10,027 nucleotides of DNA from a virus (taxonomy: Duplodnaviria > Heunggongvirae > Uroviricota > Caudoviricetes): IMG/VR virus record IMGVR_UViG_3300015186_000054, one strand, 5' to 3'. The translations under genes and the position numbers were made by a program. Below the pieces are notes generated by a model. The model had not been told where the DNA came from. It did not search any database and saw only the letters and a program-made list of their open reading frames with translations. Positions 995 to 7,232 of this stretch are shown piece after piece (position 1 is the first letter of the stretch; each line of letters opens with the position of its first letter).

Positions 995-1283
995 TGACTG
1001 CCTCCTTCTTAATCAGTTTACACAGGTGCTCCACAGCCACAGAGAGTGCATCCACCGCTCGTTTATCCAGACGCGGGGCCAGAGCAAGCAGTTCATTTAT
1101 TGCAATCTGAATACCATGCTCCGCCGCCAGCGCATTAGCACGCACCAGTTGCACTTCCAGTTGCGTTGCCAAATCGCTGATCAGCTTTGCCACACTGCGC
1201 ATATCAACGGCACCACATTCTGCTTTCAGTTCCGAAGCCATCTCATGCCCGGCGGCAACTAACCCTTTGATATTACTTTCCAT
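981..1283 (-). CDS. hypothetical phage protein (100 aa, Ala/Leu-rich helical)
   Basis: ORF track 981..1283. ATG at 1283-1281 with SD GAGGG 5 nt upstream. Overlaps the start of the downstream gene by 14 nt (coupled). No family recognised. Confidence 0.55.
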   Translation of the reverse strand: MESNIKGLVAAGHEMASELKAECGAVDMRSVAKLISDLATQLEVQLVRANALAAEHGIQIAINELLALAPRLDKRAVDALSVAVEHLCKLIKKEAVSEQN

Positions 1284-1344
1284 CTTTACCCTCGCTTATC
1301 CACATAACTTATTGATTACATTGATAACTAAAAAGATCGTCGAT

Positions 1345-1689
1345 TCAGAACTCTTCGATGTTCCAGCCACCACCTGCTTTCTTTGGTTTAACCGTTACCC
1401 CGATGATTCGGAACGGATACTGATCTGCGGCGACTTTGGTTTTCACCCTGGCGTCGTCGGTCCAGAAACCTTTCACTTCGTGCAGTTCCATCTCGCCGGT
1501 GGCGAGCATCACAGCAAAATCGGGCGTATAGAACGTGTTGTCAGCTAACCGCAGCTTGATACCCTCAAATCGATACCAGACGATTTCTCCTGCACGTTTA
1601 CGCAGCTCAAGGTGCTGGCAATACGCAGATTCTGTTTTGTTCATCTGTCCTGTTTTGAGTCGACCAAGAGCCTGTATCTGTTTTCTCAT
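1345..1689 (-). CDS. DUF1064-family phage protein (nin-region-type, putative nuclease-related)
   Basis: ORF track 114 aa. Segments NKTESAYCQHLELRKRAGEI and YTPDFAVMLATGEMELHEVKGFWTDDARVKTKVAADQYP match my recollection of the DUF1064 pattern (FDSKxE..Y..LE...G.I ... DF......DVKGF.T....K.K......YP). The start codon is immediately preceded by an operator-like dyad that contains the SD. Confidence 0.7.
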   Translation of the reverse strand: MRKQIQALGRLKTGQMNKTESAYCQHLELRKRAGEIVWYRFEGIKLRLADNTFYTPDFAVMLATGEMELHEVKGFWTDDARVKTKVAADQYPFRIIGVTVKPKKAGGGWNIEEF

Positions 1690-1692
1690 GAT

Positions 1693-1707
1693 TTACCCCT
1701 GAGGTAA
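1693..1707. promoter_or_regulatory. operator-like dyad TTACC-CCTGA-GGTAA overlapping the -10/+1 region and the SD of the DUF1064 gene
   Basis: Perfect 5+5 inverted repeat read directly from the sequence. Confidence 0.55.
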
Positions 1708-1738
1708 TTAAAAACCACATAAGACACGAAATCAATAG
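1707..1738 (-). promoter_or_regulatory. putative sigma70 promoter for the DUF1064 operon, paralogous to the early-left promoter
   Basis: Minus-strand reading: -35 TTGATT (plus coordinates 1735-1730), 17-bp spacer, -10 TTTAAT (1712-1707). It shares the heptamer CTATTGA at the -35 with the promoter at 4785-4791 and has identical operator geometry. Confidence 0.4.
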
Positions 1739-1753
1739 ATTTTAGAATATTTT

Positions 1754-1770
1754 ATTACCTAACGGGTAAT
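1754..1770. promoter_or_regulatory. operator-like dyad ATTACC-TAACG-GGTAAT
   Basis: Perfect 6+6 inverted repeat, identical over 18 nt to the site at 4753-4770, 19 bp upstream of the putative -35. Confidence 0.55.
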
Positions 1771-1780
1771 TATCGAAACG

Positions 1781-1803
1781 TAAAAAAATGCGCTATCGCG
1801 CTG
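1781..1803 (-). terminator. weak putative intrinsic terminator directly after the P-like gene (tR2-like position)
   Basis: Minus-strand reading GCGC-GATA-GCGC then ATTTTTTTA. Only a 4-bp stem but a 7-T tract. Begins 3 nt after the P stop. Confidence 0.3.
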
Positions 1804-1806
1804 GTA

Positions 1807-2583
1807 TTACTTGATAAATCCTGCCGCCTTTCCTCGCCTGTATTCCTCCATCAGCCACTGCGCCGGTGTTATTCCCCCAAGGGTGGCGGCGTTAGGCATG
1901 CACCCGAAACTTCGCCCTGGTGGATGGTAAACGTCTCTCCCTGTGTCCGGAGGCGTACTCATGGGTTCTGGCTTTGCCTGTATGCTGATCACCGGATCGG
2001 GTATCTGCTGTCCGGAAGCCACCTTTTTCGCCCAATCATCGAGCAGCCTGCGCGCGTGTTTCTCAACCTCTATCTCGCTAAGCTGGCGCTGATACATTGC
2101 ACGGCGGGTATCACATACGACCCAGTACATAACCGGATGCCGCCACGGGAATCTTTCGGGACCACCAGGATATAAACTTTTTTCCTTGCTGTACCGGTGA
2201 AACTCCGTCATCACATCGTCAATGGTAACGCCAAGAACCATCTTGCTGTCTTTACACCACTTGATGAATTGCCCTGGCGACGGCCAGAACGGAGATTCAC
2301 TGGCGCGGGCGTGGCGCATACCAGCGTTAACCTGTTCCATTGTAGTGATCCCATTCTCCAGAAACGCAAGCATCCATTGCTTACGGAATTCATTAAGTTT
2401 GTTCTGCTCCCTTATGGTCGAAACGCTTGCAGGAAATGCAGCCTGTAACTGGACAAATAGTTCATTGAAAATTCTAGCAACCTGCTCCTTTTTGCCATTG
2501 CTGTCACGCCGCTCTTCATGCACAGCAACACCATGCTCACGTAAGCGATCGTACTCATTGAGAAGTTCTGGAGTTGATTTCAT
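1807..2583 (-). CDS. P: replication protein P-like (DnaB helicase loader)
   Basis: 258-aa ORF. FPASVSTIREQNKLNEFRKQWMLAFLENGITTMEQVNAGMRHARASESPFWPSPGQFIKWC aligns almost residue for residue with lambda P as I recall it (FPASLANRDQNEVNEIRRQWVLAFRENGITTMEQVNAGMRVARRQNRPFLPSPGQFVAWC). SD AAGGGG about 8 nt upstream. Start overlaps the end of the upstream initiator gene by 29 nt. Confidence 0.9.
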   Translation of the reverse strand: MKSTPELLNEYDRLREHGVAVHEERRDSNGKKEQVARIFNELFVQLQAAFPASVSTIREQNKLNEFRKQWMLAFLENGITTMEQVNAGMRHARASESPFWPSPGQFIKWCKDSKMVLGVTIDDVMTEFHRYSKEKSLYPGGPERFPWRHPVMYWVVCDTRRAMYQRQLSEIEVEKHARRLLDDWAKKVASGQQIPDPVISIQAKPEPMSTPPDTGRDVYHPPGRSFGCMPNAATLGGITPAQWLMEEYRRGKAAGFIK

Positions 2584-3385
2584 CCCACACCCCTTCTATC
2601 CAGTCAGTGTTATTCCAGTCAAGCTCATCGCTTTTCCCGGCATTTTTTGATTTTCCCCTGATATGATTTACGTGCCTGGCGAATTTTTGTTCCCACTGAA
2701 CCTGCGTGAACACTTTGCCCTCAGCCATCCAGTAATCCCGGAATGCAGCAAGTTCAGCAGGTGTAAATTCCGGTTCCGGCAGGGCCGTTCCCCACAGCGC
2801 AGCACGCCGCCGAAAATCTGGCGACGGTAGCCAGCCATCTGTCATCGGAAATTTCCCGATGGGTTCACTCAGGCCATCCAGAAATTCAGGTTCTGCCACC
2901 TGCAACGGCGTACTGTTCGCTTCACTGGTCGGAGCACCCTCGCGCACGTGCGCTATGTGTGGGGTTTTATATATATCTTCCTCTTCCTCTTCCTCTGGTA
3001 ACTCCTTTTGTAACGCTGTTGGCGTTACTTTTTGCGTTACTCGTTTTCGATGCTCTGCCACTCTTCTATTCGTAAGTGCACGTTTTTTCGATGATTCTCC
3101 ATTGTGTCGCTCAAAGTTTGGAAGAATTAGTTTGCCGTCATGATAAGCAAGCCATCCGACGCTAATGAGGGCGTCAGCAAATCCTGTAATAAAAGCGAGT
3201 CTATCAAGTACTCCTTTTGTAACGCTGCCAGCGTTACCGTCTATTGTTTGCTGGTCAGCCCATGCCCATATACGAACCAGCTTTCCAAGAACAGCATCTG
3301 GATCAATACCCAGAATTTCTGCTATCTGAAAAATTTCAGGTTTATCAGGAGTGATAACTTCAACCTTAATCCAGCTGCTTGCCAT
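2555..3385 (-). CDS. phage replication initiator (O-like origin-binding N-terminal region, acidic linker, DnaT-like C-terminal domain)
   Basis: The track ORF 2555..3403 starts at a GTG; ATG at 3385-3383 with SD GAGGGG about 7 nt upstream is the likelier start. C-terminal GKFPMTDGWLPSPDFRRRAALWGTALPEPEFTPAELAAFRDYWMAEGKVFTQVQWEQKFAR closely matches E. coli primosomal protein DnaT as recalled ([60 protein letters not shown]). It sits directly upstream of the P-like gene and contains palindromic iterons. Confidence 0.85.
   Translation of the reverse strand: MASSWIKVEVITPDKPEIFQIAEILGIDPDAVLGKLVRIWAWADQQTIDGNAGSVTKGVLDRLAFITGFADALISVGWLAYHDGKLILPNFERHNGESSKKRALTNRRVAEHRKRVTQKVTPTALQKELPEEEEEEDIYKTPHIAHVREGAPTSEANSTPLQVAEPEFLDGLSEPIGKFPMTDGWLPSPDFRRRAALWGTALPEPEFTPAELAAFRDYWMAEGKVFTQVQWEQKFARHVNHIRGKSKNAGKSDELDWNNTDWIEGVWDEINSRTSQ
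2965..3237. repeat. putative replication origin inside the initiator gene: AT-rich tract plus palindromic iterons GTAACGC-N5-GCGTTAC
   Basis: Iteron 1 at 3010-3028 (GTAACGC TGTTG GCGTTAC) followed by an extra GCGTTAC half-site at 3034-3040. Iteron 2 at 3219-3237 (GTAACGC TGCCA GCGTTAC). An 18-nt direct repeat ACTCCTTTTGTAACGCTG occurs at 3001-3018 and 3210-3227. AT-rich TTTTATATATAT at 2965-2976. Confidence 0.5.
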
Positions 3386-3578
3386 AGGTTTCCCCTCTTG
3401 CACTCTTTAGTGCACAAGCAAATTCATTACGATGGCGGTTGGCGCTATTCATTGCACATTCAACACATGTTCCGTTCAGAACATACCTTTCAGAGAGATG
3501 GCCGTGACGGCACCGCTTTCCTGTGAAATAGCGATTTAACCCGGCTTTTGCGGCCTCCATTCTGGTTACTATCTTCAA
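3366..3578 (-). CDS. small zinc-ribbon protein (C-x-H-G-H ... C-x-x-C), occupying the CII position between Cro-like and initiator genes
   Basis: Track ORF 70 aa. The start is a TTG at 3578-3576 with SD AGGGG about 8 nt upstream; an alternative ATG at 3560-3558 has no SD. Motif KRCRHGHLSERYVLNGTCVECA suggests a Cys/His metal site. Overlaps the initiator start by about 20 nt. Function unknown. Confidence 0.45.
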   Translation of the reverse strand: MKIVTRMEAAKAGLNRYFTGKRCRHGHLSERYVLNGTCVECAMNSANRHRNEFACALKSARGETYGKQLD

Positions 3579-3656
3579 TTTTTCCGCCCCTTTTTGTTAT
3601 TGATATTGGCTATTTTGCACAATTGGAAAATTTGATCAACCAGATTTGGTTTTTTA

Positions 3657-3671
3657 TTACCTTTGAGGTAC
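3657..3671. promoter_or_regulatory. operator-like dyad TTACC-TTTGA-GGTAC (one mismatch) just downstream of the tR1-like terminator
   Basis: Dyad read from the sequence. On the minus strand it is followed after about 16 nt by TTGATC, a possible -35. Confidence 0.4.
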
Positions 3672-3679
3672 GAATAGAT

Positions 3680-3705
3680 ATGAAAAGACCGCCGGGTGGC
3701 GGTCT
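3680..3705 (-). terminator. putative intrinsic terminator after the Cro-like gene (tR1-like position)
   Basis: Minus-strand reading AGACCGCC-ACCC-GGCGGTCT then TTTCA: 7-8 bp GC-rich stem, 4-nt loop, short U-tract, 23 nt after the Cro-like stop. Confidence 0.5.
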
Positions 3706-3726
3706 ACAGAGGGGTGTGGCTGGATA

Positions 3727-3957
3727 TCATGAGTAGAAGAAGTATGCCAGTTCTGCTTTTGAGCGCAGCCATTGTCTTGTTTTACAGGCTTTAAAAAGCC
3801 CATTCATCAATACTTTACCTGGCATTTTGCGCTTACCTGTTAAGTGAGTCTGGATATAGTGACTCGTCGTTCCGGCTTCCTGTGCGAAGGCTTCACGCTC
3901 ATCCGGAGTAAGTGCAAGCCAGTGCTTTTTGAAATCGAAATGTCCGTTATCGCTCAT
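3727..3957 (-). CDS. Cro/YdaS-like HTH transcriptional regulator
   Basis: 76-aa ORF divergent from the repressor gene. LALTPDEREAFAQEAGTTSHYIQTHLTGKRKMP has the look of a Cro/CII/YdaS-type helix-turn-helix. It is the first gene of the minus-strand early operon and is followed 23 nt after its stop by a hairpin plus U-tract. Confidence 0.65.
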   Translation of the reverse strand: MSDNGHFDFKKHWLALTPDEREAFAQEAGTTSHYIQTHLTGKRKMPGKVLMNGLFKACKTRQWLRSKAELAYFFYS

Positions 3958-3993
3958 AGCTATTGCCTGATATTTATTTCAGATAATAAATAT

Positions 3994-4056
3994 TCACCCA
4001 TAAGGTAACAAAAATCAAGGATAGTTACCCATGAGGTGCATTTACCTGTTGGGTAA
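3994..4056. promoter_or_regulatory. operator triad in the divergent repressor/Cro-like intergenic region (OR analogue), with PR-like and PRM-like promoters
   Basis: Three dyads: 3994-4008 TCACC-CATAA-GGTAA (one mismatch), 4025-4039 TTACC-CATGA-GGTGC (two mismatches), 4042-4056 TTACC-TGTTG-GGTAA (perfect). On the minus strand a -35 TTGATT (4018-4013) places the first dyad inside the promoter spacer of the Cro-like gene. Confidence 0.55.
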
Positions 4057-4111
4057 TATTGCTTTAAATTGAATCATCTTCTGATTCAGATATGAGGCGA
4101 TTTTCCAGAAA

Positions 4112-4696
4112 ATGAAAAGTATCCAGGACGTCCGCAGGCAAAATCTCAACGACTTGATCGACCGTGAATTCAATGGTGTTCAGACGCGGATGGCTGAAAA
4201 ACTTGGAACTCAGGCAAATCTGGTAAACCGCTGGGCTCTTGGCAAGAAGGTTATCGGCGACCAGGTTGCACGAAAAATTGAAGCTGCCGCCAATAAACCC
4301 CGTAACTGGCTTGATATCGATCGCTCGCTTTCTCAGGAAGGTTTTCAGCCTGTCGGCCCAAGCGACATTGGCCAGCTGGCGGCTCACAACCTGGAACGCT
4401 GGATGAGCGAAAGCCGCGACCTTTCAACACAGGGAAAACTTCACCGCGCATCCGGCGTAGCCCAGGTGACAATCAGCCGCCTGTTAAACAATGAGGTCAG
4501 CGTTTCCATTTCCACCCTGGAGAATGTTGCATCCGCATTCGGGCGTCACGGCTATGAATTACTGATTCACCCGCACGACCCTGCGACCATCAACTATGAT
4601 CGCTCGCGCTACGCATTGTTACCCGAAACCGAGAAAGCAAAGATCGAAAGTTACATTGAATTTGTCATCAACCAGAACGAAAAAAACAAACAATAA
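4112..4696 (+). CDS. prophage repressor (CI analogue) with two XRE-type HTH domains and no LexA/S24 peptidase domain
   Basis: 194-aa ORF. N-terminal HTH (GVQTRMAEKLGTQANLVNRWALGKKVIGDQVARKIEAAANKPRNWLD) and a second HTH-like segment (LHRASGVAQVTISRLLNNEVSVSISTLENVASAFG). No Ser/Lys autoprotease motifs. Divergent from the Cro-like gene, weak or no SD, followed by a strong intrinsic terminator. Confidence 0.7.
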   Translation: MKSIQDVRRQNLNDLIDREFNGVQTRMAEKLGTQANLVNRWALGKKVIGDQVARKIEAAANKPRNWLDIDRSLSQEGFQPVGPSDIGQLAAHNLERWMSESRDLSTQGKLHRASGVAQVTISRLLNNEVSVSISTLENVASAFGRHGYELLIHPHDPATINYDRSRYALLPETEKAKIESYIEFVINQNEKNKQ

Positions 4697-4716
4697 AACC
4701 ATATTTTTCAGTAAGT

Positions 4717-4743
4717 AAGCCGCCTTATGGCGGCTTTTTTATT
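4717..4743 (+). terminator. rho-independent terminator downstream of the repressor gene
   Basis: Stem AAGCCGCC (4717-4724), loop TTAT, stem GGCGGCTT (4729-4736), followed by a run of T residues. Confidence 0.8.
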
Positions 4744-4752
4744 GCCTATTCG

Positions 4753-4769
4753 ATTACCTAACGGGTAAT
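4753..4769. promoter_or_regulatory. operator-like dyad ATTACC-TAACG-GGTAAT upstream of the early-left promoter
   Basis: Perfect dyad, 19 bp upstream of TTGACA. Confidence 0.55.
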
Positions 4770-4784
4770 TTTTTTAACTCATAT

Positions 4785-4816
4785 CTATTGACATCAAACC
4801 ATATACGCATAATTAT
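4785..4816 (+). promoter_or_regulatory. putative sigma70 early-left promoter (pL analogue)
   Basis: -35 TTGACA at 4788-4793 (perfect consensus), 17-bp spacer, -10 AATTAT at 4811-4816. Flanked by operator dyads 19 bp upstream of the -35 and overlapping the -10. Confidence 0.55.
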
Positions 4817-4831
4817 TACCTCAACGGTAAC
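4815..4831. promoter_or_regulatory. operator-like dyad ATTACC-TCAAC-GGTAAC overlapping the -10/+1 of the early-left promoter
   Basis: Perfect TTACC-N5-GGTAA core; its centre is 62 bp from the centre of the upstream dyad. Confidence 0.55.
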
Positions 4832-4849
4832 AGACCGAGGTAACAAGTT

Positions 4850-5002
4850 ATGCAGTGGAAAATCATCAACGGTTGGTACTGCGTTACTGCATGCGGATTC
4901 ATGAGCTGGAAGTTCCGCACCTTACAGGAAGGCATTAAGTGGGCTTTCGTCAGCAAAGAAGCTCGCGATGTGGCCAACGATAACGAGATATGGGAGGGCT
5001 GA
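4850..5002 (+). CDS. hypothetical small protein (50 aa, Trp-rich), first ORF after the leftward early promoter
   Basis: Not in the ORF track (below size cut-off). ATG 4850 with SD GAGGT 9 nt upstream; TGA at 5000-5002. Translation MQWKIINGWYCVTACGFMSWKFRTLQEGIKWAFVSKEARDVANDNEIWEG. Coding status uncertain. Confidence 0.35.
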   Translation: MQWKIINGWYCVTACGFMSWKFRTLQEGIKWAFVSKEARDVANDNEIWEG

Positions 5003-5004
5003 TA

Positions 5005-5304
5005 ATGAACGTTAATCAGCAGAAAAATCTTCAAAAAATCATGCTGGCATTCGATAAGGACTACCGCCTGTCAGAACAGCTATATGACCGACAAGTTGAA
5101 CTGATTGAGAGCATCCGACTTCATCAACTGTCCTCAACTTTCGACGTTGTAACAGGCAAAGGCGTTCGTCAGGAAGTACTGGAGGCTGCTAAAGACAGCC
5201 CTGAGTTCGAAGAACTGATGGATGCCTACCGTCGCGAGGCAATGGCAATTATCGCCCGCTGGGATCTGGCTGATCAGATTGATGGGCAGAGGGACGCGGC
5301 ATGA
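5005..5304 (+). CDS. hypothetical phage protein (99 aa)
   Basis: Track ORF 4990..5304. I prefer ATG 5005 (MNVNQQKNLQ...) because SD GGAGG lies 7 nt upstream. Its stop overlaps the ATG of the exonuclease gene (ATGA). No family recognised. Confidence 0.55.
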   Translation: MNVNQQKNLQKIMLAFDKDYRLSEQLYDRQVELIESIRLHQLSSTFDVVTGKGVRQEVLEAAKDSPEFEELMDAYRREAMAIIARWDLADQIDGQRDAA

Positions 5305-6200
5305 TGCGGAACGCTGGAATCATGGATAGAACAAAATACATCGGAGGAAGCGATGTTGCAGGGATTCTTGGAATTAGCCCATGGCGCACCCCGCTTGAGG
5401 TTTATCTGGATAAGGTCCAGCCACGTGTCAAACCAGTAGACCCAAGCAAGCAGAAAGTTTTCACGCGTGGCCAGCGTATGGAGCCATACGTAATAGACCT
5501 GCTTTCTGAGGAAACAGGGATGGAAATCGTTCATCGCGGAAACCGCTATATCCACCGTGATTACGATTTTATTGCAGCTGAGATCGATGCAGAAGCAGCG
5601 TCAGGCGAGAACATTGAGATCAAAACAGTTAGTCCGTTCAAAGCCAAAGAATGGGGAGAAATCCAGACAGATGCAATTCCTGTGCATTACACGGCCCAGG
5701 CCATGCACGGGTTGATGGTTACAAACAAACAGGTATGCGTTTTCGGTGTGCTTATCGGTGGCGACGACTTCCGAATCTATCGGGTTGAGCGTGATGAAGA
5801 AACTATCCAGGCGATCTTAGAAAAAGAAATCGCTTTCTGGGACCGAGTGAAAAATCTTAACCCGCCGGAAGCTACCAGCGTAAGCGATGTATCGCTGATG
5901 TTTGAGAAAGATGCCGGGACAAGTATCGAGGCTGACGGAAAGGCACTCGCACTATTCAACGATCTACGAGACATGAAGTCACGCAGAAAATCACTGGAAG
6001 AAGAAATAGCTATATCAGAAGAGAAGCTGAAGATGTACATGCAAGAGCACTCAGTCCTGACCCTGGACGGAAAGCCGCTCTGCACATGGAAATCTCAGAT
6101 CAGCAACAGATTCGACCAGAAGCTATTCCAGTCAGTACACCCTGAGTTATTCGAAAAATTCAAAACAACAACGACACAACGCGTCTTCAGAATGAAGTAA
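5301..6200 (+). CDS. YqaJ/lambda-Exo-type phage exonuclease (recombination partner of RecT)
   Basis: 299-aa ORF. N-terminal KYIGGSDVAGILGISPWRTPLEVYL is the characteristic YqaJ viral-recombinase-domain signature. Immediately upstream of a RecT gene. SD AGAGGGA upstream. Confidence 0.85.
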   Translation: MMRNAGIMDRTKYIGGSDVAGILGISPWRTPLEVYLDKVQPRVKPVDPSKQKVFTRGQRMEPYVIDLLSEETGMEIVHRGNRYIHRDYDFIAAEIDAEAASGENIEIKTVSPFKAKEWGEIQTDAIPVHYTAQAMHGLMVTNKQVCVFGVLIGGDDFRIYRVERDEETIQAILEKEIAFWDRVKNLNPPEATSVSDVSLMFEKDAGTSIEADGKALALFNDLRDMKSRRKSLEEEIAISEEKLKMYMQEHSVLTLDGKPLCTWKSQISNRFDQKLFQSVHPELFEKFKTTTTQRVFRMK

Positions 6201-6209
6201 GGAGAAAAA

Positions 6210-7232
6210 ATGTCTATCAATGCACTTAAGGCAGCGGCTACCGGTAACCAAGTTGCACATCATAATGAGAAACCAACAACTCTGGCCGGACTTCTGGCAG
6301 ACCCAAAAATTAAAGCTCAGATGGCTTTGGCACTTCCAAAGCACATGACAGCAGACCGTCTGGCGCGCATAGCAACCACAGAGATCCGAAAGGTTCCAAA
6401 ACTTGCATCATGCGACCAAGCCAGCTTCCTGGGGGCAATTATGCAATGTGCCCAATTGGGTCTTGAACCAGGCGGAGCTCTTGGACACGCTTACCTGATA
6501 CCGTTCGACAAACGCCAGAAAGTAAATGGAAGATGGGAAACCGTATCTACAGAAGCACAGCTGATTATCGGCTATCGCGGAATGATTGACCTTGCCCGCC
6601 GCTCTGGGCAGATCCTGAGTATCTCGGCTCGTACCGTACATACAAACGACAAATTCAGCTACTCATACGGCCTGGAAGAAACGCTCGAGCATTTACCTTG
6701 CGAAACAGGTGACCGCGGAGAATTAACGCACGTTTACGCCGTTGCACGACTGAAAGATGGCGGAGTCCAATTTGAAGTTATGAGCCGGGCAGACGTTGAG
6801 AAAGTTCGTGCACTGAGCAAAGCCGGTAGCAGTGGCCCATGGGTTGATCACTTCGATGAGATGGCTAAAAAAACAGTAATTCGCCGACTGTTCAAATATC
6901 TTCCTGTTTCTATTGAAATGCAGAAGGCTGTTGTTATGGATGAGCGCGCTGAAGCTGGACTTAGCCAAGATAACGCAGCTGTTATCACTGGTGAATATTC
7001 CGTAGTTGACGATGAGCGTCAACACCTATCGCCAATTTCAGATTCAGAACGAGAAGAAGCTCGAGAATATATCATCGCGATACTTAATAGCCTGGATCCA
7101 TCTGCTGAAGATGCAAAAACGATGTTCAAGCGCGCTGAAAATGAAATTAACACCATGGCTGACAAGCTCGGTGATGAATATCACCAAAAATTCATGATGA
7201 CGCTTAACGATATGCGTCCAGAATTCGAGTAA
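6210..7232 (+). CDS. recT: RecT-family single-strand annealing recombinase
   Basis: 340-aa ORF. GHAYLIPFDKRQKVNGRWETVSTEAQLIIGYRGMIDLARRSGQI matches the RecT/Red-beta core as recalled. SD AAGGAG 6 nt upstream of ATG 6210. Confidence 0.9.
   Translation: MSINALKAAATGNQVAHHNEKPTTLAGLLADPKIKAQMALALPKHMTADRLARIATTEIRKVPKLASCDQASFLGAIMQCAQLGLEPGGALGHAYLIPFDKRQKVNGRWETVSTEAQLIIGYRGMIDLARRSGQILSISARTVHTNDKFSYSYGLEETLEHLPCETGDRGELTHVYAVARLKDGGVQFEVMSRADVEKVRALSKAGSSGPWVDHFDEMAKKTVIRRLFKYLPVSIEMQKAVVMDERAEAGLSQDNAAVITGEYSVVDDERQHLSPISDSEREEAREYIIAILNSLDPSAEDAKTMFKRAENEINTMADKLGDEYHQKFMMTLNDMRPEFE

What the first reader, a model, noticed from the sequence alone, without database searches (positions are those of the whole stretch)
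1693..1806. Duplicated promoter-operator cassette: a repressor-gated promoter after the P gene with the same geometry as the early-left promoter
At 4753-4831 and 1693-1770 the layout is identical: dyad, 19 bp, -35 within the shared heptamer CTATTGA, 17-bp spacer, -10, second dyad overlapping the -10. The dyad centres are 62 bp apart in both. The upstream dyad is identical over 18 nt (ATTACCTAACGGGTAATT) and the downstream dyad shares ATTACCTCA. In lambda, genes after P are reached by N antitermination, with no operator-controlled promoter there. Here the nin-like genes appear to have their own immunity-controlled promoter, whose downstream dyad overlaps the SD of the DUF1064 gene.
Basis: partly seen in the sequence, partly recalled or inferred. 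Interest (0 to 1): 0.7.

Follow-up and report, generated by a model that had tools for sequence, protein, structure and literature searches.

The report
Repressor-clamped promoter after phage replication genes
The stretch is a real, conserved control module of an epsilon15-like E. coli prophage, a weak terminator followed by a promoter-like site bracketed by two repressor-binding palindromes; its upstream palindrome is already annotated as a repressor site in phage epsilon15, so it is mostly ordinary.

Summary
On the minus strand, 1801-1692 holds a weak terminator, then 11 nt, a perfect 17-bp palindrome ATTACC-N5-GGTAAT, 18 nt, TTGATT, 17 nt, TTTAAT, and a second palindrome over the start site and ribosome-binding site of the DUF1064 gene. 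The early-left promoter (4753-4831) has the same geometry, with palindrome centres 62 bp apart in both.

The window is a Uetakevirus (epsilon15/phiV10-like), 98.6% identical to phage ZX5. The palindrome also forms the three operators between cro and the repressor gene. In ZX5, 10 perfect copies occur where 0.025 are expected, and all lie between genes. The module is kept in Escherichia, Salmonella, Enterobacter and Klebsiella relatives: half-sites and spacing are fixed while other bases drift.

The repressor is a full-length homologue of SPC32H Rep, a tetramer with a looping-type tetramerization domain. The best reading is that one tetramer clamps both palindromes and shuts a promoter for the nin-like genes.

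Promoter activity is inferred, and the -10 element is poor in this clade.

Novelty is low. The epsilon15 RefSeq record already annotates the orthologous upstream palindrome, and other dispersed copies, as repressor sites.

Unexplained extra: the centres and outer flanks of the two upstream palindromes are about ten times more variable than synonymous sites.

The parts
1807..2583 (-). Replication protein P homologue, the gene upstream of the cassette
   Evidence: Pfam PF06992 Phage_lambda_P, E 1.6e-55
1782..1801 (-). Weak intrinsic terminator after P: GCGC-GAUA-GCGC stem-loop followed by U7
   Evidence: RNA fold gives -8.4 kcal/mol, z -2.66. The same element is annotated as a terminator in phiV10. 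The stem and T-run are conserved in all relatives. The stem is too short to be called by the scan.
1771..1781 (-). 11-nt linker between the T-run and the upstream dyad; its length is fixed and its sequence is hypervariable
   Evidence: The length is 11 nt in 87 of 97 distinct cassette sequences scored as after-P type and across genera. Diversity (pi) reaches 0.56, with up to 4 alleles per site.
1754..1770 (.). Upstream operator: perfect palindrome ATTACC-N5-GGTAAT, centred about -62 from the predicted start
   Evidence: Zero-mismatch match. Half-sites are almost invariant in about 79 close relatives and in the other genera, while the central bases vary freely. The orthologous site is annotated 'protein_bind repressor' in epsilon15 at 35906-35922.
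1730..1735 (-). -35-like hexamer TTGATT, within the heptamer CTATTGA shared with PL
   Evidence: Read directly from the sequence. TATTGA is present in every relative listed, and the leading C in all but Tyrion.
1707..1712 (-). -10-like hexamer TTTAAT, 17 nt after the -35, with its last 2 nt inside the downstream dyad
   Evidence: Same offset to the dyad as AATTAT at PL. It lacks A at position 2 and was not called by the scan. Klebsiella relatives have TTGATA-16-TATAAA at this place.
1692..1708 (.). Downstream operator ATTACCTCAGGGGTAAA over the predicted start site; its centre holds the ribosome-binding site GGGG (1696-1699)
   Evidence: One-mismatch match. Half-sites are conserved in all relatives. 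It lies 62 bp centre to centre from the upstream dyad.
1345..1689 (-). DUF1064 gene, the first gene of the nin-like operon served by the cassette
   Evidence: Pfam PF06356. In ZX5 the operon runs about 3.4 kb to a terminator in front of the small terminase gene.
4717..4742 (+). Strong terminator after the repressor gene (stem-loop 4717-4736, then the T-run)
   Evidence: -18.7 kcal/mol, z -5.6
4753..4831 (+). Early-left promoter cassette with the same geometry: dyad 4753-4769, TTGACA 4788-4793, AATTAT 4811-4816, dyad 4815-4831
   Evidence: 10 of 12 promoter matches; conserved in relatives
3993..4057 (.). Operators between cro and the repressor gene: 3993-4009, which overlaps the -35 of the rightward promoter (TTGTTA-17-TATTAT), plus two abutting dyads 4024-4040 and 4041-4057
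   Evidence: the same arrangement occurs in the relatives
3612..3705 (-). Third terminator-dyad-promoter-like module, after cro: terminator 3705-3686, dyad 3672-3656, TTGATC 3639-3634, CAAAAT 3617-3612; it has no clear downstream dyad
4112..4696 (+). Immunity repressor, a homologue of SPC32H Rep
   Evidence: PDB 5D50, E 4e-42 over residues 1-190. It is 42% identical to the SPN1S repressor, the closest copy of SPC32H Rep held as a locus here.
3727..3957 (-). Cro-position gene, homologue of epsilon15 gp39
   Evidence: Position and the phiV10 annotation; no Pfam hit

Best explanation
The element is a repressor-clamped promoter module at the junction between the replication genes and the nin-like genes of a Uetakevirus prophage.

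Proposed mechanism:
1. Rightward transcription through the P gene meets a weak terminator (1801-1782).
2. Downstream lies a sigma-70-type promoter (TTGATT-17-TTTAAT) that restarts transcription into the DUF1064/nin-like operon.
3. In the lysogen the phage repressor, a homologue of the tetrameric SPC32H Rep, binds two 17-bp palindromes. One is centred about -62 and the other about +1.
4. The two sites lie 62 bp apart (about six helical turns, so on the same face). One tetramer, with its two pairs of DNA-binding domains, can hold both, loop out the promoter and exclude RNA polymerase.
5. When the antirepressor splits the tetramer, this promoter, PL and PR are released together.

Shown here: the sites exist, they match the operators at OR and OL, their geometry equals that of PL, half-sites and spacing are under selection, and the repressor is a Rep homologue.

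Inferred: Rep binding at these sites, looping by a single tetramer, and promoter activity.
For: - Motif statistics: 5 perfect dyads in the window against 0.01 expected; 11 against 3.45 with up to 3 mismatches. In the whole ZX5 genome, 10 perfect against 0.025 expected and 14 with at most one mismatch against 1.1. All 14 lie between genes, in front of or between transcription units.
- The same motif forms the three operators between cro and the repressor gene, and both PL operators.
- The geometry is identical to PL, which scores 10 of 12 in the promoter scan.
- Conservation: the cassette is present in phiV10, BUCT554, Tyrion, SPN1S, epsilon15 and Klebsiella Uetakeviruses. Half-sites and TATTGA are kept (the preceding C in all but Tyrion), as are the 18-nt and 17-nt gaps. 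The dyad centres, the promoter spacer and the linker diverge.
- Centre-to-centre distance is 62 bp in 309 of 329 distinct cassette sequences and 61 or 63 in the rest.
- Among about 79 near-identical relatives, half-site diversity averages 0.02 while the adjacent central bases reach 0.46-0.62.
- The cassette stays constant while the replication module upstream is swapped for other alleles.
- Repressor: full-length homologue of SPC32H Rep. Rep is reported to be a tetramer that binds palindromic sites and is split by Ant (bioRxiv 10.1101/2021.09.07.459249). It is reported to carry a looping-type tetramerization domain, with its two pairs of dimerization domains about 100 angstroms apart (PMC9986798). 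The interface residues F187 and F190 correspond to Y181 and F184 here.
- The epsilon15 RefSeq record annotates the orthologous upstream dyad as a repressor-binding site.
Against: - There is no direct evidence of a transcription start or of repressor binding at this site.
- The -10 hexamer in this clade (TTTAAT) lacks the A at position 2 that nearly all sigma-70 promoters have, the -35 matches only 4 of 6, and the scan did not call it.
- A start near 1700 leaves the ribosome-binding site 1-5 nt from the 5' end of the message.
- The terminator after P is weak (4-bp stem). Read-through from the rightward promoter could therefore express these genes without a local promoter.
- All relatives share the same half-site, so operator-repressor covariation could not be tested.
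- A 62-bp loop is short and would need bending of the A/T-rich DNA between the sites.
Confidence: 0.6

Rival explanations
1. Repressor-dependent terminator (roadblock) without an independent promoter. The dyad placed 11 nt after the T-run stalls any polymerase at the weak terminator. In the lysogen termination is then complete. After the repressor is inactivated, transcripts from the rightward promoter read through into the nin-like genes. On this reading the -35/-10-like hexamers are weak or incidental.
For: - A terminator followed within about 10-14 nt by a dyad recurs four times: after the repressor gene, after cro, after P, and in front of the small terminase gene.
- The T-run-to-dyad distance is fixed at 11 nt (12 nt at OL) although that linker's sequence is hypervariable and differs between genera.
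- The after-P hairpin has only a 4-bp stem.
- The -10 is poor.
Against: - It does not explain why TATTGA, the 17-nt gap and the second dyad at exactly 62 bp are conserved. It also does not explain why the layout equals that of PL, which must be a promoter.
- In Salmonella and Klebsiella the PL dyad pair has no such upstream hairpin, yet keeps the 62-63 bp pair.
- The two ideas are compatible, so this may be an added function rather than a replacement.
Confidence: 0.2
2. Auxiliary operator cluster for long-range looping. The after-P dyads mainly serve as remote anchors that pair with the operators between cro and the repressor gene, about 2.3 kb away. This would tighten repression there, as the lambda OL-OR loop does, rather than control a local promoter.
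For: - The repressor is a tetramer with reported higher-order (octamer) crystal contacts (PMC9986798).
- The distance from the cassette to OR is about 2.3 kb, similar to the lambda OL-OR distance (own knowledge of lambda).
- Repressor sites are dispersed through the genome.
Against: - Anchoring alone would not require a conserved -35-like element, a fixed 62-bp pair, or a dyad placed exactly over a ribosome-binding site and start site.
- PL, only 0.75 kb from OR, already offers such a partner.
- The sites elsewhere in the genome sit in front of genes, as expected for local control.
Confidence: 0.12
3. Chance resemblance, or a neutral remnant of a duplication with no present function.
For: Short A/T-rich palindromes and -35-like hexamers are common in intergenic DNA. 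The 18-nt identity of the two upstream dyads is peculiar to this window.
Against: - The motif is enriched about 400-fold.
- Half-sites and spacing are kept across four host genera.
- Half-sites are invariant while surrounded by hypervariable bases.
Confidence: 0.01

Closest known systems
Predicted repressor-binding sites of Salmonella phage epsilon15 (RefSeq NC_004775.2 annotation)
   Same: Same genus and the same 17-bp ATTACC-N5-GGTAAT motif. The record marks 'protein_bind: repressor' at the orthologous position after the replication genes (35906-35922). It also marks three sites at OL, one in front of the small terminase gene, one before gp3 and one in front of the tail-fibre gene.
   Different: Only perfect ATTACC...GGTAAT copies are annotated there. 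Not recorded are the downstream dyad (35969), the OR sites, any promoter, the 62-bp pairing and its equality with PL. The window is a different, E. coli phage whose repressor is only 42% identical to that of SPN1S, a Salmonella member of the genus.
Rep-Ant lytic switch of Salmonella phage SPC32H (PDB 5D50, 5D4Z; Kim and Ryu 2013, Kim et al. 2016, primary texts not held)
   Same: The window's repressor is a full-length homologue (E 4e-42). It has no LexA-like cleavage domain. The close relative ZX5 encodes an antirepressor. Rep is reported to bind palindromes as a tetramer and to be split by Ant.
   Different: What I could read of that work concerns the protein structure and the antirepressor. 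PMC9986798 states that the structural mechanism of repression has not been extensively characterized. I found no description of the after-P cassette.
Promoters enclosed in a short loop by a tetrameric repressor (gal OE/OI, lac O1/O3, pCF10 PrgX, pLS20 Rco)
   Same: Two operators flank or overlap one promoter, are spaced by a whole number of helical turns, and are held by one tetramer. Rep's tetramerization domain is reported to have the same fold as that of Rco (PMC9986798).
   Different: At 62 bp the loop is shorter than gal (113 bp) or lac O1-O3 (92 bp); those figures are from my own knowledge. Looping here is inferred, not shown.
Lambda early-right operon (tR2, nin region, N antitermination)
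   Same: Same gene order: cro, replication genes O/P-like, then nin-like genes. There is a terminator after the replication genes.
   Different: Lambda reaches the nin genes by N-modified read-through and has no operator there (own knowledge). Here there is no recognizable boxA near the promoters (a weak test), and repressor sites follow each terminator.
Phage repressors with operators dispersed over the genome (P1 C1; mycobacteriophage L5/Bxb1 'stoperators'; N15 CB)
   Same: One repressor acts directly at many transcription units instead of through a cascade, and (in P1) is inactivated by an antirepressor (own knowledge). ZX5 has 14 sites in about 9 intergenic regions.
   Different: P1 and L5 sites are asymmetric and bound by monomers, and L5 sites act within operons as elongation blocks. 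Here the sites are symmetric, lie between genes, and at two promoters are paired at 62 bp.

Membership tests
Operator of the Uetakevirus Rep-type immunity repressor | The phage encodes a Rep homologue | tested here: met
   Window 4112-4696 matches PDB 5D50 at E 4e-42 over residues 1-190. It is 42% identical to SPN1S Rep and the NLVNRW helix is conserved.
Operator of the Uetakevirus Rep-type immunity repressor | The site carries the same palindrome as the operators flanking the repressor gene | tested here: met
   TTACC-N5-GGTAA occurs at 1693, 1755, 4042, 4754 and 4816 (perfect) and at 3993 and 4024 (degenerate).
Operator of the Uetakevirus Rep-type immunity repressor | Contact bases are under purifying selection | tested here: met
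   Half-site diversity averages 0.02 against 0.46-0.62 at the four central bases and 0.054 at four-fold degenerate sites. Half-sites are kept across four host genera.
Operator of the Uetakevirus Rep-type immunity repressor | Operator sequence changes together with repressor specificity in heteroimmune relatives | tested here: inconclusive
   Every Uetakevirus examined uses the same half-site. More distant phages with DUF1064 have no cassette.
Operator of the Uetakevirus Rep-type immunity repressor | The repressor physically binds the site | not testable with these tools
   This needs a gel-shift or footprint experiment. The primary SPC32H papers were not held.
Sigma-70 promoter | -35 and -10 hexamers close to consensus, 16-18 nt apart | tested here: inconclusive
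   TTGATT (4 of 6), 17 nt, TTTAAT (5 of 6 but without A at position 2). The scan did not call it. Klebsiella orthologues have TTGATA-16-TATAAA.
Sigma-70 promoter | A mapped transcription start | not testable with these tools
   I found no transcript data for these phages. The ZX5 paper only predicts promoters.
Intrinsic terminator (after P) | G+C-rich hairpin followed by a U-run | tested here: met
   GCGC/GCGC stem plus U7, -8.4 kcal/mol, z -2.66. The stem is short, so it falls below the 5-pair threshold. It is annotated as a terminator in phiV10.
Lambda-type N antitermination of the nin region | nut site (boxA CGCTCTTA plus a boxB hairpin) downstream of the early promoters | tested here: not met
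   The only boxA-like matches are inside coding sequence, on the strand opposite to the gene there. This was a simple pattern search, so the evidence is weak.
Looped dual-operator repression (gal/lac/PrgX/Rco type) | Two operators spaced by a whole number of helical turns, with the spacing conserved | tested here: met
   62 bp in 309 of 329 distinct cassette sequences, 61 or 63 in the rest, and the same at PL and after P.
Looped dual-operator repression (gal/lac/PrgX/Rco type) | A repressor able to hold two operators at once | tested here: inconclusive
   Homology to tetrameric Rep, with aromatic interface residues kept (Y181, F184). The oligomeric state of this particular protein was not determined.

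The most novel reading that the evidence does not exclude
The upstream dyads may be more than loop anchors. Each sits a fixed 11-12 nt after a terminator's T-run. A bound repressor would therefore stall polymerase exactly at the release point. Weak terminators would become tight only in the lysogen, so removal of the repressor would replace lambda's N/Q antitermination throughout the genome. The same two dyads and their outer flanks are also local hot spots of sequence change, about ten-fold above synonymous sites. That would point to mutagenesis or diversifying selection tied to a stable repressor-DNA complex.
Probability: 0.2. Interest if true: 0.6.

Novelty: new member of a known kind. Interest (0 to 1): 0.33.

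Why it matters
The result explains how an epsilon15-like prophage can keep its post-replication (nin-like) genes silent without lambda's antitermination cascade. One tetrameric repressor acts directly at each transcription unit, and at two promoters it acts through a fixed 62-bp pair of sites.

This gives the solved but functionally little-characterized SPC32H-type Rep tetramer a concrete, testable DNA target geometry.

It is also of practical use, because phiV10-type phages are engineered as E. coli O157 reporter phages.

The gain is incremental. The motif and the site after the replication genes are already annotated in the genus type phage.

Tried and rejected
- Covariation test. I looked for heteroimmune relatives whose operators differ. 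All Uetakeviruses from Escherichia, Salmonella, Enterobacter and Klebsiella use TTACC-N5-GGTAA. Distant phages with DUF1064 (F116, PotUPM1, AbIPP1, Rostov 7, Bcep176) have the gene packed inside an operon with no cassette. The test was therefore not possible.
- Gene conversion or matching between the two upstream dyads. Their central bases are uncorrelated within genomes, in the same or the reverse orientation. Rejected.
- A plus-strand promoter reading leftward through the 3656-3672 dyad, suggested by inverted repeat I2. The best -35 would be only 14 nt from the -10-like hexamer. The minus-strand reading (dyad, 16 nt, TTGATC) is the one conserved in relatives. Rejected.
- Known RNA families. 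There are no Rfam matches in the window.
- Lambda-type nut sites. None found.
- Assembly error as the cause of the hypervariable islands. Unlikely: the variants come from many independent isolate genomes, are confined to a few columns, and scale with flank divergence.
- 'All unconstrained bases are saturated' as the explanation for the islands. Rejected: the dyad centres and the terminator loop in front of the small terminase gene are almost invariant in the same genomes, and four-fold sites average a diversity of 0.054.
- Primary literature. The epsilon15 genome paper and both SPC32H papers are not held. The ZX5 paper contains no operator mapping.
Full report
**What the window is.** The 10-kb window is the early region of a Uetakevirus, an epsilon15/phiV10-like temperate podovirus. 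Window 1300-5100 is 98.6% identical to Escherichia phage vB_EcoP_ZX5 and 97% to TL-2011b. The window plus strand corresponds to lambda's leftward direction.

The gene map is as follows.

| Gene | Coordinates | Strand | Evidence |
|---|---|---|---|
| DUF1064 | 1689-1345 | - | Pfam |
| lambda-P homologue | 2583-1807 | - | Pfam E 1.6e-55 |
| DnaT-domain replication protein | 3403-2555 | - | Pfam |
| cro-position gene | 3957-3727 | - | phiV10 annotation |
| repressor | 4112-4696 | + | |
| early-left genes leading to recE/recT | from 4850 | + | |

**Checking the observation.** The minus strand reads as follows:
- P stop codon at 1807
- hairpin GCGC-GATA-GCGC plus T7 (1801-1782)
- 11 nt
- ATTACCCGTTAGGTAAT (1770-1754)
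- 18 nt
- TTGATT (1735-1730, inside CTATTGA)
- 17 nt
- TTTAAT (1712-1707)
- ATTACCTCAGGGGTAAA (1708-1692)
- ATG at 1689

The early-left promoter has the same layout on the plus strand: dyad 4753-4769, 18 nt, TTGACA, 17 nt, AATTAT, dyad 4815-4831. Dyad centres are 62 bp apart in both. The downstream after-P dyad does contain the ribosome-binding site.

The motif is far beyond chance. There are five perfect TTACC-N5-GGTAA sites in 10 kb against 0.01 expected. With up to three mismatches there are 11 matches against 3.45 expected, reached by none of 200 shuffles.

**What the dyads are.** The same palindrome forms the operators between cro and the repressor gene. Site 3993-4009 overlaps the -35 of a rightward promoter, TTGTTA-17-TATTAT. 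Sites 4024-4040 and 4041-4057 are two abutting copies. A further copy lies at 3656-3672, just after the cro terminator.

In the complete ZX5 genome there are 10 perfect copies against 0.025 expected, and 14 copies with at most one mismatch against 1.1 expected. All 14 lie between annotated genes. They lie:
- in the antirepressor region
- in front of the integrase gene
- at OL, OR, after cro and after P
- in front of the small terminase gene
- before the portal region

The after-P cassette is therefore one node of a dispersed set of repressor sites, not a lone duplicate of PL.

**The repressor.** The 194-residue protein has no LexA-type cleavage domain. It is a full-length homologue of the Rep protein of Salmonella phage SPC32H. 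It matches PDB 5D50 at E 4e-42. It is 42% identical to the repressor of SPN1S, a close relative of SPC32H, with the NLVNRW helix conserved.

According to papers I could read, Rep has an N-terminal DNA-binding domain, a middle dimerization domain and a C-terminal tetramerization domain of the 'TetDloop' type found in loop-forming regulators. The two pairs of dimerization domains lie about 100 angstroms apart (PMC9986798). Rep binds palindromic sites as a tetramer and is taken apart by the antirepressor Ant (bioRxiv 10.1101/2021.09.07.459249). The aromatic interface residues F187 and F190 correspond to Y181 and F184 here. ZX5 encodes an antirepressor.

The Pfam HTH_3 hit (residues 106-147) falls in the middle domain. 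The DNA-binding domain is the weaker Cro/YdaS-like hit at residues 21-61.

**Comparative evidence.** The after-P cassette is present in phiV10, BUCT554, Tyrion, SPN1S, epsilon15, three Klebsiella Uetakeviruses and about 100 distinct IMG/VR prophage sequences. Across these the following are kept:
- the terminator stem and T-run
- the 11-nt linker length
- both pairs of half-sites
- TATTGA (and the preceding C in all but Tyrion)
- the 18-nt and 17-nt gaps
- the T(T/A)AAT-TACC junction

The dyad centres, the linker sequence and the promoter spacer diverge.

The centre-to-centre distance is 62 bp in 309 of 329 distinct cassette sequences, and 61 or 63 in the rest. The cassette also stays the same when the replication module upstream is replaced by other alleles. 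In Tyrion and epsilon15 the downstream gene is a RusA/RuvC-type resolvase instead of DUF1064. It behaves as a self-contained junction module.

More distant phages that carry DUF1064 have it packed inside an operon with no cassette. Because every relative with the cassette uses the same half-site, operator-repressor covariation could not be tested.

**Most likely mechanism (confidence 0.6).** Rightward transcripts stop, at least partly, at the weak terminator after P. The hairpin has a 4-bp stem and folds at -8.4 kcal/mol, against -15 and -18.7 for the other two terminators.

A sigma-70 promoter between the dyads restarts transcription into the operon of about 3.4 kb that runs from DUF1064 to the next terminator, in front of the small terminase gene.

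In the lysogen a repressor tetramer holds the dyad at about -62 and the dyad at about +1. They are 62 bp apart (about six turns, so on the same face). The A/T-rich promoter DNA is looped and polymerase is shut out. Antirepressor releases this promoter together with PL and PR.

The anatomy, the identity with the OR and OL operators, the selection on half-sites and spacing, and the homology of the repressor are shown. Binding, looping and promoter activity are inferred.

**Weak points.**
- The -10 in this E. coli clade lacks the A at position 2, and the -35 matches 4 of 6. The consensus scan called PL (10 of 12) but not this site.
- The Enterobacter, Salmonella and Klebsiella versions are better, with TAAATT at 18 nt or TTGATA-16-TATAAA.
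- A start near 1700 leaves a leader of only about 10 nt.
- Read-through of the weak terminator could supply these genes without a local promoter.

**Rival readings.**
1. The upstream dyad may act as a roadblock that makes the terminator repressor-dependent (confidence 0.2). A terminator followed within about 10-14 nt by a dyad recurs four times. The 11-nt distance is fixed although its sequence is hypervariable. This does not explain the conserved -35-like element or the second dyad, so it is more likely an added function than a replacement.
2. The dyads may be remote anchors for long-range looping to OR (confidence 0.12).
3. Chance (confidence 0.01).

**Comparison with what is known, and novelty.** Lambda reaches its nin genes by N-dependent read-through (own knowledge), and I found no boxA near the promoters here (a weak test).

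The idea is not new for this genus, however. The epsilon15 RefSeq record (NC_004775.2) annotates 17-bp ATTACC-N5-GGTAAT sites as 'protein_bind: repressor (lysogeny)' at seven places. One of them is 35906-35922, the orthologue of window 1754-1770. Others lie in front of the small terminase and tail-fibre genes.

That record lists only perfect copies and no promoters. The analysis here adds:
- the downstream dyads
- the OR sites
- the 62-bp pairing shared with PL
- the conservation pattern
- the link to the tetrameric Rep structure

Direct control of many operons by one repressor is also known from P1, N15 and mycobacteriophage L5 (own knowledge). I therefore rate this as a new member of a known kind, with modest interest.

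**An unexplained extra.** The comparison set is 69 distinct sequences of the 1200-5400 region. In it, four-fold degenerate sites in the flanking genes have a mean diversity of 0.054 over 227 sites.

The hypervariable positions are listed below.

| Positions | What they are | Diversity |
|---|---|---|
| 1760-1763 | central bases of the after-P upstream dyad | 0.46-0.62 |
| 1771-1780 | outer linker of that dyad | up to 0.56 |
| 4760, 4762 | centre of the OL upstream dyad | about 0.5 |
| 4747-4751 | outer flank of the OL upstream dyad | 0.46-0.58 |
| 4726-4727 | loop of the OL terminator | about 0.49 |

These positions carry two to four alleles each (three or four at most of them).

By contrast, the centres of the promoter-overlapping dyads, the OR dyads, the after-cro dyad and the dyads in front of the terminase gene are almost invariant in the same genomes.

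Further observations:
- Island differences rise with flank divergence, so this is inherited variation, not noise.
- The after-P alleles show nearly all single-base combinations, which suggests recurrent mutation. At OL, flank and centre form linked haplotypes.
- The repressor and cro genes are nearly invariant, so the variation does not track a change in binding specificity.
- In the Salmonella clade the dyad centre is stable (AAAAA or AAAAG) while the linker still varies.

I have no tested explanation. Local hypermutation linked to a stable repressor-DNA complex and diversifying selection on operator strength are both open.

Noticed in passing
window 1759-1763, 1771-1780, 4745-4752, 4759-4763, 4725-4728: There are small hypervariable islands at the centres and promoter-distal flanks of the two upstream dyads, and in the OL terminator loop. 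Diversity is 0.46-0.62, with 2-4 alleles per site (3-4 at most), against 0.054 at four-fold degenerate sites in the flanking genes. The adjacent half-sites are almost invariant. Dyad centres elsewhere (OR, after cro, in front of the terminase gene) are conserved. No tested explanation.
   Followed up: partly
window 3612-3705 (minus strand): A third terminator-dyad-promoter-like module lies after cro: terminator 3705-3686, dyad 3672-3656, 16 nt, TTGATC, 16 nt, CAAAAT. It is conserved in phiV10, BUCT554, Tyrion, SPN1S and epsilon15. It has only a degenerate half-site downstream of the -10. It may drive the replication genes.
   Followed up: partly
window 3993-4057: The operator region between cro and the repressor gene has one dyad over the rightward -35 plus two dyads that abut directly (17 bp centre to centre). 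This differs from lambda's spacing of about 24 bp. The arrangement is conserved in Salmonella and Klebsiella relatives. The abutting pair may be the target of a single tetramer.
   Followed up: no
L090 (ZX5 genome) 978, 2043, 2423, 8026, 19625, 19643, 22756; L174/L175 (epsilon15): Repressor dyads also lie in the antirepressor region, in front of the integrase gene, before the portal region, and as a pair between a terminator and the start codon of the small terminase gene. That pair has no obvious promoter. This suggests that late genes are also directly gated, or road-blocked, by the repressor. epsilon15's record annotates several of these sites.
   Followed up: partly
window 3001-3040 and 3210-3237: Two copies of a 28-nt repeat lie inside the DnaT-domain replication gene. 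Each contains the palindrome GTAACGCTG...CGTTAC. They are probably the replication origin (iteron-like), as in lambda, where the origin lies within the O gene.
   Followed up: no
window about 2300-3600: This is a mosaic boundary. Diversity among relatives jumps from about 0.02 to 0.13-0.22 across the N-terminal part of P, the DnaT-domain gene and the small gene after cro. Several replication-module alleles are therefore combined with the same immunity region and the same after-P cassette.
   Followed up: partly
window 4112-4696 (protein residues 21-61 and 106-147): The strong Pfam HTH_3 hit lies in what is the dimerization domain in the SPC32H Rep structure. The true DNA-binding domain is the weak Cro/YdaS-like N-terminal hit. 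The phiV10 annotation of 'two helix-turn-helix motifs' is therefore misleading about how the protein binds DNA.
   Followed up: partly
L004 (Tyrion) 6064-6381, read on the plus strand: In Enterobacter phage Tyrion the OL upstream site carries an extra half-site: ATTACC-TGACA-ATTACC-CCACA-GGTAAT. The dyad is shifted by 11 bp relative to the terminator.
   Followed up: no
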